Shown here: piece by piece, positions 35,101-38,100 of the stretch
How the letters are laid out: every line of letters starts with the position of its first letter
How positions within the stretch are numbered: position 1 is the stretch's first letter
Assembly (NCBI RefSeq): GCF_964204865.1
Contig: NC_135261.1
Location: 4,154,001 to 4,218,000, forward strand
Length of the DNA stretch: 64,000 bases
Direction of reading: 5' to 3'
Origin: Styela clava
Taxonomy: Eukaryota
The notes under the pieces: generated by a model
The model's database searches: none
What the model saw: only the letters and a program-made list of their open reading frames with translations
What the model was told of the DNA's origin: nothing
Position numbers and translations under genes: made by a program

Positions 35101-38100
35101 GAATAAAGAGACTGAAACCTATGGGCAGGGGGTATATTCCCTTGACTAACACAGACAGTCCCCGAACTCATAATAGGACTAAAATAAGGAAAATTGGAAT
35201 AGAATGCCCTAACCCTAATCTGGTATACATAATACGGGAGTACTGGTGAAAATATGAAAGTTGACCAAATTTGATAAGAAACAAGTACCTGAGCTTGGAA
35301 TTTCAATTTGCTTTCACCACCATCCCGGTCTCTCTTATGACAAGCAACTGCAGAATCCTCCATGACGTTGAGCCAGTACTTTGTCATCTGATTGTGAGAA
35401 TCACGGAATGTGTCTTCTTCATGTTGGGAAGCTTTGTGTTGGACCTGGGATGAACGATGGCGATTGATAGTAACTGCATTGGATTGAAATGTTTCCGGCA
35501 GAATTATTTAGGAACACATCACACACATGTAGAAGCATGTGAATAGTGAACATCCAGGTTATGATCATTAGGTGTTCAAAAAAATCACTTATCGCATTGA
35601 TGAAATGGGATTTACCGTAATCATAAAACTTTTACTTATCGTAATTGAACGATGAATAGCGTCAGGATTTGTATTAAGTGTAGCAAGTTGAATAATAGTG
35701 GCAAGCCTAATAAGCATTAGATTAAATTTAAATAATTTTATAAAAATATAATAATAAAGACTTTCGAATTTAGATGGAAAATTGCGAAAACCATGGACTG
35801 TACTGGCGTAGCCCTGGAGTGCCAGAAACCTTGTTGGTAATCATTGCTCTATAGTTTATTAGTTGGTGAGAAAAAAAGGGTAGTAGAGAAGAAATTCTCA
35901 ACTTACATGTTTATTTATGAATTGAATCCATTCTTTAGATTGACAATATTTTACGAAGTCATCGAAGAACGTAGCGCTTCCACTAGTGGGAGGTAGATCA
36001 TTCAAAAACTGTCCCAAAGCTAGAACTTCGTAATTCTTATCCAGCAAATCTCGAATCAATGGAACAACAAACTTTACAACATGGGTATCATCTGAAAATA
36101 AGATAAAATATTGAAGATGTAAAACAATGGGCGCGCCGGAAGTATGTGCACCAAGATGGCGCACAACCTGAACCCAAACCTGGTACACATACTTCGGGAG
36201 CACCAAACAATGAACAGTTTATGGAATTCAAGAGTCCTGCTGCACACTAACACAAATGTATTGCTGTGACGTTTCGTCTGACCAAAATCAGACTAACTCA
36301 GACAAGCAGTTTACAACAAATTGTGAGCAAGGAAATTTGTTGTAAACTGCTTGTCTGAGGAAGTTTGATTTTGGTCAGACGAAACGTTACAGAAATACAT
36401 GTGTGTTAGTATGCAGCAAGACTCTTGAATTGCATAGTATGGTCACGTTTAGTTAAAAAACAGTTTTGTTGGGTTTTTATATATTCTTTACTCATAGTCT
36501 GGTTATATAGAAGCAACCAGTATTGAAGTGAAACTTTAAAAAATGTGGGATCTCTCCAGATTGGCAGTTCGATGCTGAAGTCTGGTTTAAAACTTTTTAC
36601 AACCCAGAGGATTCAAAATAGAGTCCACATTATTCCTAGCCTGGAGTCAGGAGTTGAAAGCTCGGCGGCGTGGGGCATCGTGCTAAGCACTGGGAATGCG
36701 CTCCGATTACCCTGCATGGGTTCACAGGTTCGAATCCCATAAGGATAGTTGTATGCAAGAGGATTGCTGGATTCCTCACTGCCGTAGGGTGGTTCACATA
36801 AACGCTGGTCGGTTACGACTTCCTCCAACCACAAGTCCATGCATTTCAAACAAATATCTGGTTAACTAATCCCACCGACATTGACTCTTCTCCAGGACAA
36901 ATATGTAAAATCCTACACTGTCCTAAAAGTAAATTTCCATGAACTCCTCTGCCTTGCTAAATAGTTAGGGCCAGCAGCCAAGAAATGCATCCTTACATAT
37001 TGACATTGATTTTTATTGAGGCCTAATGCTCGCTATTAATCATTACCTTTTATGCTTTTACATTGTATTTTATGAAGATTGTTCAGAAGGTAGCAAATTT
37101 CTTCTGTGCTTCTTGGTGACCTCGAGTGGATGAGATGATGTAATTTTGCTGCTGCCATGGCAACCAGTTCAAGTTTATCTGTATTCATGCATCTGTAAAC
37201 ATGTTAAACAGTAAACAATATAAAACAATTACACAGAATAAAAAGTAGTAAAATTGTAGACTTAGTAGCGTTAAAAAAACTGTTTCGGGGGTTTAAGCAA
37301 TGCAAAAGGAAACCAGAACTAATGTGAAGGGATATCAATCAGAAAGCTGAATCGTTAAGCTTGGTTTGGAAAAAAAATGCCATTAGTTTCTAGCGCAGCA
37401 GAAAAAACACACATCATTGAGCTTTCTGCTATTAAGAAATAACTAATAAATATATAGGATGGATAGCTCAAGCCTCTTCAACATTGGATCCCTTCATGAA
37501 ATATTTACATCTGCAAAGAGTACTCACCCGAGCAGTAGCCTCAATCCGATGCTTGCAAGCTCAACCCATTCTGTTGGTCCATTCAATGATGACTCATTGT
37601 TGTTGTCCCAGACAACGAGAACATCAAATAACATAAACATGTTTTCCATGAGCTGTGAATACCAAGAATAAAAACGTTTCGAACAGAGGTTGGCAAGGTT
37701 CTCGGACCAAGGGCCAAAAAATTTTCCTACCTAGACCGGCTGGCCATGTAAGTGGGACAAAAAAAATACATTTTATTATTATGAAGTGTTACAAAAGCGT
37801 GTTACAAAAGTGGAAAACAATGAGCTTGATGTCAAAACAAAATATAATAGCAATCTCAACAAATTCCTCGAGCTATTTTTCAGCTGAAACGTCAAAATTT
37901 GGTTTTAGTTCGGTTGTGGCAGCATCAGGCCATCAGGGCAGATTAAATTACCCAACGAGCTGGATTTGGCTCACGGGCTGTAATTTACACATGTCAGGTT
38001 TGGGAGCTAAGAGACAGCTCTGATTTTTAATTGAACTTTAGTCTCTGTGCCCACAGTGACAATATTATACAATATAATGTGCAGTATCACACACCTTATC

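What the first reader, a model, noticed from the sequence alone, without database searches (positions are those of the whole stretch)
36225..36431. Inverted pair of minimal hammerhead-like motifs in an NBEAL intron, with the sense-strand copy mutated in the core
Seen: a hairpin of about 207 bp with one motif per arm. The + arm (36351-36392) reads UUGU CUGAGGA A GUUUGA uuuugg UCAGAC GAAAC GUU ACAG. The - arm (36305-36264) reads UUGU CUGAGUU A GUCUGA uuuugg UCAGAC GAAAC GUC ACAG. Established: minimal type I hammerheads with a tiny palindromic stem III occur in Penelope-like element terminal repeats, cleave as dimers, and those repeats are often found inverted. Inference: the copy in the sense of the NBEAL pre-mRNA keeps a perfect stem II and GUC site but has lost catalytic G8/A9, while the antisense copy keeps CUGAGGA. 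That pattern fits selection against cleavage of the host transcript, though two substitutions could be chance. The roughly 100-bp dsRNA could also be an ADAR or Dicer substrate. Caveats: extra A before stem II and a short stem I.
Basis: partly seen in the sequence, partly recalled or inferred. Interest (0 to 1): 0.7.

Follow-up and report, generated by a model that had tools for sequence, protein, structure and literature searches.

The report
Decayed head-to-head Penelope retrotransposon stub
This intron hairpin is an old, very short insertion of a common Penelope-type jumping gene, two end pieces joined head to head; its one damaged ribozyme motif fits ordinary decay, and its sister copies show that the two arms were likely written separately, from the two cut DNA strands, often up to what is likely the capped start of the element's RNA.

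Summary
The hairpin and both motifs are real. They are two 5'-truncated end pieces (pLTRs) of a Penelope-like element; the same sequence flanks intact RT + GIY-YIG genes elsewhere in this genome. The motif is a known minimal hammerhead. Selection on the sense copy is not supported: across 156 arms, core and non-core positions decay alike (3.85% vs 3.89%), the window's arms carry 4 and 5 private changes, the 'kept' GUC is itself a mutation (family: GUU), and in the host RNA the sense motif is predicted to be locked in the hairpin. The side result is more interesting. Head-to-head insertions pair a short arm with a tailed arm, and 13 of 37 share no sequence, so one arm is not a fold-back copy of the other. 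In a sample chosen without regard to the centre, 40 of 91 arms begin in one 10-base window and 1 at the ribozyme cut; there a non-templated G often precedes the first base (15 of 37 vs 0 of 62), as a copied cap would. A second family repeats the arm pairing but not the peak. Unreviewed notes of this scan report the same reading in other genomes.

The parts
36220..36319 (-). Short arm: pLTR unit positions 1-100, ending at the element's first fixed outer end; in the sense of the host pre-mRNA; 5 private changes (G24T, A25T, T52C, A57C, G96C)
36264..36305 (-). Minimal hammerhead motif with G8 (36296) and A9 (36295) changed to U, and position 17 (36268) changed from the family's U to C; predicted dead and sequestered in the hairpin
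36320..36336 (.). 17-nt junction between the two arms; differs in every insertion. 11 nt of it match the element's 3' UTR at unit position -71 (1 of 57 junctions has such a match; shuffles give 1.3)
36337..36453 (+). Long arm: pLTR unit positions 1 to about 117; the rest of the tail (to about 213) that young copies carry is absent; 4 private changes in positions 1-100 (C29T, T65G, G75A, G83A)
36351..36392 (+). Minimal hammerhead motif with intact core; one stem II pair changed from C-G to U-G (36365); predicted cut after 36388 (GUU); antisense to the host gene
36212..36219 (+). Candidate target-site duplication, left copy (8 nt, abuts the short arm)
   Evidence: short, so tentative
36459..36466 (+). 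Candidate target-site duplication, right copy
   Evidence: short, so tentative
35905..36091 (-). Host exon downstream of the hairpin (DUF4800 region of the BEACH-domain gene)
43696..43886 (+). Second, older copy of the same unit (positions about 1-194, 82% identity), antisense to the host gene, 3' half of the hammerhead core broken
   Evidence: lies between host exons at 41754-41944 and about 44045-44190

Best explanation
The hairpin is a decayed, very short insertion of a Penelope-like retrotransposon: two 5'-truncated copies of its hammerhead-bearing end piece joined head to head, likely written by two separate reverse transcriptions primed from the two cut DNA strands, and the damage to the sense-strand ribozyme is likely neutral decay. 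SHOWN: the unit lies 629 nt after the stop codon and 250 nt before the ATG of a 938-aa RT + GIY-YIG ORF arranged in partial tandems; insertions have two fixed outer ends (unit about 100 and about 213), variable inner ends and 8-15-nt target duplications; head-to-head insertions pair one short with one tailed arm, and neither arm is consistently a part of the other. INFERRED: the endonuclease nicks both strands about 12-15 nt apart; one 3' end primes cDNA at site 213, the other at site 100; each cDNA runs towards the RNA 5' end and stops early or runs off; the two cDNA ends are joined by end-joining with a few added bases. INFERRED: the pile-up of inner ends at unit position 0 marks the capped transcription start in the pLTR, so the shortest palindromes (like this one) are run-off copies primed near the 5' end of uncut RNA. 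INFERRED: in the element's own RNA the hammerhead would cut only as a dimer or with protein help; in the host pre-mRNA it cannot fold and so is not under selection.
For: Link to ORF: (19 of 30 GIY-YIG loci hold the full motif; window arms 89-90% identical to the pLTR beside the intact ORF). Outer ends: 46 of 91 arms end at 88-116 and 31 at 200-232. Architecture: of 140 distinct insertions 63 are head to head, 37 of these with the 100 + 213 ends and none with two tailed ends; in the 37 the short arm reaches further 5' in 19, the long arm in 10, equal in 8, and 13 share no sequence. A second family (Penelope/Poseidon-type, other hammerhead) pairs short with long at 17 of 22 junctions. Start peak: 40 of 91 arms anchored downstream of the ribozyme begin at -5..+4, against 31 in the next 60 nt (p 2e-16), in both sub-families (22 and 18), with unrelated upstream sequence; 1 of 91 begins at 52-54, the cut site. 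Base -1 is G in 15 of 37 truncated arms that begin at A0 (15 of 20 non-templated bases) and in 0 of 62 read-through arms; G is 5 of 27 at other junctions. No G case continues into upstream element sequence for more than 4 nt. Neutrality. In vitro, a PLE protein nicks and extends both strands, starts at two internal RNA sites that bound the tail, and uses uncut RNA (PMC11167929). An extra G at the 5' junction marks capped full-length L1 insertions (PMC11702581).
Against: No raw RNA reads or 5'-end data: the transcription start, the cap and any cleavage are inferred from genomic junctions only. The start peak did not replicate in the second family: 68 arms spread from -400 to 0, densest 11 at a TA run. 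17 of the 37 truncated A0 arms carry the templated C at -1, and the window copy itself has no extra G; its junction holds an 11-nt match to sequence upstream of the proposed start. 10 of 91 arms begin at 48-58, a mild excess near the cut site. Sequence similarity between sub-families also starts near position -10, so older copies could seem to end there. The window copy lacks most of the tail and its target duplication is only 8 nt. No intact ORF of the window's own sub-family was found (40 of 288 candidates scored). Host-gene orientation could be fixed for only one other two-armed insertion (11 loci tried), so no genome-wide sense/antisense tally was made.
Confidence: 0.8

Rival explanations
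1. One reading: the sense-strand hammerhead cut the host pre-mRNA, and selection fixed the G8/A9 changes.
For: Two adjacent core bases are changed in the sense arm and none in the antisense arm. Tandem retrozymes are reported to be under-represented in Xenopus introns (bioRxiv 10.64898/2026.07.22.740005, passages).
Against: Equal decay of core and flanks; 24% chance of this pattern; 4 vs 5 changes per arm, the two core changes being one adjacent pair; antisense copy at 43696 also broken; both cores intact in an intron of a glutathione transferase gene (a young copy, one example); motif sequestered in the hairpin; single minimal hammerheads showed no cleavage in vitro (PMC4209133).
Confidence: 0.05
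2. The inverted arm arises by self-priming: one strand (cDNA, or an antisense RNA as proposed in PMC3846280) folds back and is copied, so one arm is a copy of the other.
For: Junctions often hold short self-complementary or locally templated bits; 10 of 37 insertions have the short arm inside the long arm and 8 have equal inner ends. Proposed in print for rotifer PLEs.
Against: In 19 of 37 the short arm holds sequence that the long arm lacks, and 13 share none. A fold-back copy gives no reason to stop at a fixed site (unit 100) that is also a natural 3' end of full-length elements. Later deletions could hide overlap in old copies, but several no-overlap cases are 97-100% identical to the reference and keep 12-14-nt target duplications (L206, L229, L258, L117).
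Confidence: 0.1
3. A palindromic mini-element (MITE or fold-back family) that moves as one unit.
For: The best 40 matches to the window all have the same centre.
Against: That sample was chosen by likeness to the window. Unbiased samples show variable centres, a different junction in every copy, unequal arms and variable target duplications; the unit is part of an RT-coding element.
Confidence: 0.02
4. The 100-bp double strand has been kept as a functional intron structure (ADAR or Dicer substrate, splicing control).
For: It folds at -172 kcal/mol in the pre-mRNA, 130-350 nt upstream of a 3' splice site. Editing or dicing of such hairpins is likely as a side effect (own knowledge).
Against: The arms have drifted 9 changes apart in 100 nt without compensation; Rfam miRNA matches are all far below their thresholds; no excess of A-to-G over T-to-C in 156 arms (49/2778 vs 59/3717).
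Confidence: 0.03

Closest known systems
Minimal hammerheads in pLTRs of metazoan Penelope-like elements (Cervera and de la Pena 2014, PMC4209133; read parts 1-2 of 4, figures not seen)
   Same: Helix II of 7-8 bp, helix I of 4-5 bp, one unpaired base between positions 9 and 10.1, G10.1-C11.1, palindromic 15.2-16.2; pairs on opposite strands 100-700 bp apart; mostly in truncated copies.
   Different: Cut triplet of this family is GUU; that paper does not relate the opposite-strand pairs to how the insertion is built.
Endonuclease-bearing PLE insertions with inverted 5'-truncated pLTR and one-sided tail: Neptune/Nematis, Penelope/Poseidon (PMC8557442, PMC3846280, PMC2377424; passages)
   Same: Single RT + C-terminal GIY-YIG ORF, partial tandems, inverted truncated copy, tail on one arm, target duplications, promoter in the pLTR.
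   Different: The tail here is about 113 nt, not 30-40. PMC3846280 explains head-to-head junctions by self-priming, possibly on an antisense template; the non-overlapping arms and the extra G here point to two primers on sense RNA.
Poseidon element of Anolis in vitro (Frangieh et al. 2024, PMC11167929; read parts 1-2 of 4)
   Same: Both strands nicked and extended, two internal RT start sites bounding the tail, AT-rich targets, uncut RNA as main template.
   Different: There the ORF starts within the hammerhead and RT starts inside the ORF; here both sites lie in the 5' leader before the ATG. The parts read do not derive head-to-head insertions or a cap signature.
LINE-1 twin priming and 5' extra G (PMC11702581, passages)
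   Same: Second DNA end primes a second cDNA, giving an inverted 5' part; extra G at junctions that reach the capped end.
   Different: In L1 the second primer lands at random and the two cDNAs abut; here it uses a fixed site, and the arms may overlap fully (4 of 37 abut at 105-112 as in L1).
Non-LTR retrozymes (PMC7229834, passages; bioRxiv 10.64898/2026.07.22.740005, part 1 of 5 and passages)
   Same: Non-coding, PLE-related, type I hammerhead; the window's sub-family includes a 588-bp internally deleted monomer in tandem (L106).
   Different: The window copy is not tandem, is inverted, and has a minimal rather than canonical hammerhead.

Membership tests
Endonuclease-bearing Penelope-like element (pLTR fragment) | Unit flanks a single ORF with RT and C-terminal GIY-YIG | tested here: met
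   938-aa ORF, RVT_1 420-595, GIY-YIG 843-927; window arms 89-90% identical to its pLTR. The ORF belongs to a sister sub-family, not the window's own.
Endonuclease-bearing Penelope-like element (pLTR fragment) | DKG motif and YxDD in the RT; CxxC and two histidines in the endonuclease | tested here: met
   DKG named in PMC8557442
Endonuclease-bearing Penelope-like element (pLTR fragment) | Partial tandems forming pLTRs, with an inverted 5'-truncated copy | tested here: met
   L061-L067; 63 of 140 head to head
Endonuclease-bearing Penelope-like element (pLTR fragment) | Tail on one end only | tested here: met
   about 113 nt, longer than the 30-40 nt in print; mostly missing in the window copy
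Endonuclease-bearing Penelope-like element (pLTR fragment) | Target-site duplication of variable length | tested here: met
   8-15 nt in 27 of 37 insertions (the 8-9-nt ones may be chance); window copy only a tentative 8 nt
Neptune clade of PLEs | CX2-5CxxC linker between RT and endonuclease | tested here: met
   residues 805-813; motif as given in PMC8557442, where a Zn-finger-like linker marks both Neptune and Nematis
Neptune clade of PLEs | Placement in an RT tree | not tested
   no reference PLE proteins at hand
Minimal type I hammerhead of PLEs | Core CUGANGA ... GAAA ... UH | tested here: met
   family majority at every core position and window + arm; the window - arm alone fails (G8, A9 lost)
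Minimal type I hammerhead of PLEs | Helix II 7-8 bp closed by G-C, extra base after A9, helix I 4-5 bp, palindromic 15.2-16.2 | tested here: met
Minimal type I hammerhead of PLEs | Covariation in the stems | tested here: met
   94% of cells paired, 4 of 14 pairs change on both sides (one in helix I, two in helix II, one in the palindrome); only 9 rows, and all double changes come from one distant family
Minimal type I hammerhead of PLEs | Self-cleavage as a dimer | not testable with these tools
   needs a bench assay; genomic copies show no peak at the cut site (1 of 91)
MITE / fold-back DNA transposon | Symmetric terminal repeats, constant centre and fixed-length target duplication | tested here: not met
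Non-LTR retrozyme | Head-to-tail tandem units each with a hammerhead | tested here: not met
   window copy is a single inverted pair; a relative is tandem (L106)
microRNA precursor | Match to an Rfam family at its gathering score | tested here: not met
   best 53 bits against 195

The most novel reading that the evidence does not exclude
Penelope-like elements build their inverted ends by priming one cDNA from each cut DNA strand at two fixed sites of a sense, capped, uncut RNA; the tiny palindromes are run-off copies whose centre, with its extra G, maps the element's transcription start. Genome sequence alone would then map PLE promoters and settle the sense-versus-antisense template question left open in 2013.
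Probability: 0.55. Interest if true: 0.6.

Novelty: new member of a known kind. Interest (0 to 1): 0.33.

Why it matters
The feature itself is ordinary: such motifs and inverted pairs were described in 2014, and this copy shows no sign of a role in the host gene. What could matter is the family statistics. How PLEs make head-to-head ends is an open point: one paper proposed self-priming on an antisense template, another showed two-strand nicking and two RT start sites in vitro. Non-overlapping arms and a cap-like G are the genomic signature expected from the second picture, and they name exact positions (start at unit 0, primer sites at about 100 and 213) that 5'-end sequencing or an in vitro assay can test. 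I found neither point in print (open-access library only; and 90 returned nothing; Lunse et al. 2016 and most pre-2008 PLE papers were not readable; no supplements were read), but unreviewed notes of this scan reached the same reading in several other genomes.

Tried and rejected
(1) A fixed centre for all palindromes, as the first 17 loci suggested: an artefact of searching with the window; pattern-based samples show variable centres with one strong peak. (2) A peak of 5' ends at the ribozyme cut: 1 of 91 at 52-54; 10 at 48-58 is a mild excess, three of them at position 50, which a cut after 52 does not explain. (3) The G at -1 as a jump to an upstream word: runs of at most 4 nt. (4) Replication of the start peak in other hammerhead families: not seen in family F; family E (81 pattern hits, 30 loci read) shows many copies starting 34-38 nt before the core, but I had no read-through reference and did not count them. 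(5) Sense/antisense tally: 139 candidate frames from 11 loci scanned; only L181 could be placed in an intron; L137, L182 and L154 lie near genes but were not placed; inconclusive. (6) RNA evidence: no RNA holder is on record and only contigs were available. Contigs of two runs have next to no cover upstream of the proposed start while covering the unit and ORF, a third covers it: not used as evidence. A 47-nt GT..AG skip in the tail in one run has an added base and resembles the genomic deletion in L024, so I did not count it as an intron. Editing in the hairpin: no row among the 40 shown of 408; no verdict. (7) A-to-G excess in copies: none. (8) An intact ORF for the window's sub-family: the top matches were the deleted monomer or its composites; not exhaustive. 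(9) Solved structure of a relative of the ORF: none at E < 0.1. (10) PMC9977147 (passages) gave nothing on inverted PLE ends.

Full report
1. Observation. The sequence is as described. The inverted repeat is 112 nt per arm at 88%. The host is a BEACH-domain gene on the - strand; contigs of three runs guessed to be RNA join exon 35905-36091 to exons further upstream, so the hairpin is intronic. Rfam holds no model that matches the motif, but a relaxed descriptor finds the + arm and nothing else in the window.

2. It is a repeat. A search with the hairpin gave 2393 candidates, of which 40 were scored. Exact patterns from the unit occur 258 and 384 times, controls 0. In young copies both arms carry the same intact motif, one arm runs on for about 113 nt more, and the whole is flanked by 12-15-nt AT-rich duplications. 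I number the unit from the first base of the window's + arm (36337 = 1): core C3 = 19, predicted cut after 52.

3. It is the end piece of a Penelope-like element. Of 30 GIY-YIG loci, 19 hold the full motif. In full elements the order is ORF, 629-nt 3' UTR, unit, next ATG at unit position 251; elements stop at unit 100 or run to about 213. The ORF is 938 aa with RT and C-terminal GIY-YIG, DKG, YIDD and a CX4CxxC linker, which points to the Neptune/Nematis side (PMC8557442, passages; no tree made). The window's own sub-family is represented by an internally deleted 588-bp monomer in tandem (L106); I found no intact ORF for it.

4. The ribozyme motif. It has every feature listed for minimal PLE hammerheads (PMC4209133, parts 1-2 read): long helix II, short helix I, an extra base after A9, G-C closing pair, palindromic 15.2-16.2. 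Two further families in the genome have other stems around the same core (81 and 124 pattern hits, controls 2 and 0). On nine representatives 94% of cells pair and 4 of 14 pairs change on both sides (few rows). That paper also reports opposite-strand pairs 100-700 bp apart, no cleavage by a single motif and low cleavage by dimers. Dimer cleavage per Lunse et al. is known to me only through a review (PMC6765202, passages); the paper was not held.

5. Selection on the sense copy. Against the reference copy the + arm has 4 private changes and the - arm 5, plus one shared older variant. GUC is one of the private changes. In 156 distinct arms (189 before removing duplicates) core positions differ at 3.85% and other positions at 3.89%; since the search patterns bias some positions, I also compared positions outside both patterns: 43/936 vs 88/2028, p 0.77. 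Of 51 arms with 2-5 non-core changes, 20 have a broken core; of 29 two-armed insertions, 21 have both cores intact, 7 one broken, 1 both. The antisense copy at 43696 is broken too. L181 has both cores intact about 40 nt upstream of the last exon of a glutathione transferase gene; it is young and a single case. By geometry, any transcript through a head-to-head pair makes the complementary arm first; folding gives the sense motif's stems a probability of about 0. A genome-wide tally was not possible.

6. How the insertion is built. From 154 loci chosen by exact patterns, 140 distinct insertions remained: 69 single pieces, 63 head to head, 8 other. 37 have outer ends at about 100 and about 213; none of the 63 has two tailed ends; the other 26 are decayed, composite or cut by the locus edge. 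In the 37, the short arm reaches further 5' in 19, the long arm in 10, both alike in 8; 13 share no sequence and 4 abut at 105-112. One arm therefore cannot in general be a fold-back copy of the other, the reading offered in PMC3846280 (passages). Two primers at two fixed sites fit, and match the in vitro behaviour of the anole element (PMC11167929, parts 1-2 read). A second family with a 30-nt tail pairs short with long at 17 of 22 junctions.

7. Where the arms begin. I sampled arms by a pattern downstream of the ribozyme (the first 100 of 384 hits, 98 recovered, 91 after removing duplicates). 40 begin at -5..+4, 31 in the 60 nt after, 20 further upstream; 1 begins at the cut site. Position 0 is the A of TCATT or CCATT, which I recognise from memory as initiator-like; TATA-like 8-mers lie at -31 to -32 in three of four sub-families (read; weak in AT-rich DNA). 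D. virilis Penelope starts transcription inside its pLTR (PMC2377424, passages). Among truncated arms that begin at A0, base -1 is G in 15, C (templated) in 17, A in 3, T in 2; among read-through arms C in 60, T in 2, G in 0. Leaving out the loci found by likeness to the window, G is 9 of 13 non-templated bases (p 0.001 against 25%). An extra G marks capped 5' ends in L1 insertions (PMC11702581, passages). Against: the peak was not seen in family F, the window copy has no G and holds an 11-nt match to upstream sequence at its junction, and there are no raw RNA reads.

8. Earlier notes. I had the Penelope, neutral-decay and capped-start readings before the first look-up (notes; stated). One note on this genome calls a similar piece ordinary and names the host a sea squirt, which I did not test. 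Eight notes on other genomes give the same two-primer or cap reading; two of them see ends at the ribozyme cut, which I do not see here. They are unreviewed and are not counted as evidence.

9. Verdict. A new member of a known kind; the selection story is not supported. Interest 0.33, resting on the testable mechanism read from the sister copies rather than on this locus.

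Noticed in passing
L106 (G000:C1:6694286-6696841); also L192/L193: Tandem and inverted array of a 588-bp non-coding monomer: pLTR unit, first 120 nt towards the ORF start, then the end of the 3' UTR; copies 97-100% identical. A deletion derivative of the PLE that looks like a retrozyme in the making.
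   Followed up: partly
L103-L105, L111, L113, L119, L120, L123, L124, L150, L170: A shared composite (unit 1-333, 3' UTR piece, repeated tail 151-222, short arm ending at 77) recurs at many places, some in 1.9-kb tandems; it may be spread as a unit or carried by another element.
   Followed up: partly
G000, (e.g. L305, L326): At least two more minimal-hammerhead PLE families: one with an AGCU palindrome, one with a GUC site, TA run upstream and a linker-less (Penelope/Poseidon-type) endonuclease; both form head-to-head pairs.
   Followed up: partly
window 36122-36208, 33516-33640, 34359-34525, 43495-43598: Very abundant short palindromic repeat (about 125 bp, 51-nt arms at 33517-33640), MITE-like; one copy abuts the hairpin on the left.
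   Followed up: no
window 36650-36860: GC-richer repeat with tRNA-like box words by eye, probably a SINE; ARAGORN finds no tRNA in the window.
   Followed up: no
window 29270-29305, 42190-42222, 62062-62145: Three further small fragments of the same PLE unit; at 62062-62145 a short arm is joined to a tail piece without overlap.
   Followed up: no
L036, L037 (G000:C2:8222332, 8276845), L033, L053, G000:C17:20066388: GIY-YIG matches inside open frames of 1761-2871 aa, far longer than the PLE ORFs and without this hammerhead; unidentified large elements.
   Followed up: no
L061-L062 (G000:C18:15.23 Mb) and L063-L064 (G000:C18:14.24 Mb): Near-identical three-part structure (inverted truncated copy, truncated copy, full ORF) made independently by two sub-families; ORFs intact and copies over 99% identical, so recently active.
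   Followed up: partly
window 44936-45243: Tandem repeat region giving open low-complexity frames on both strands.
   Followed up: no
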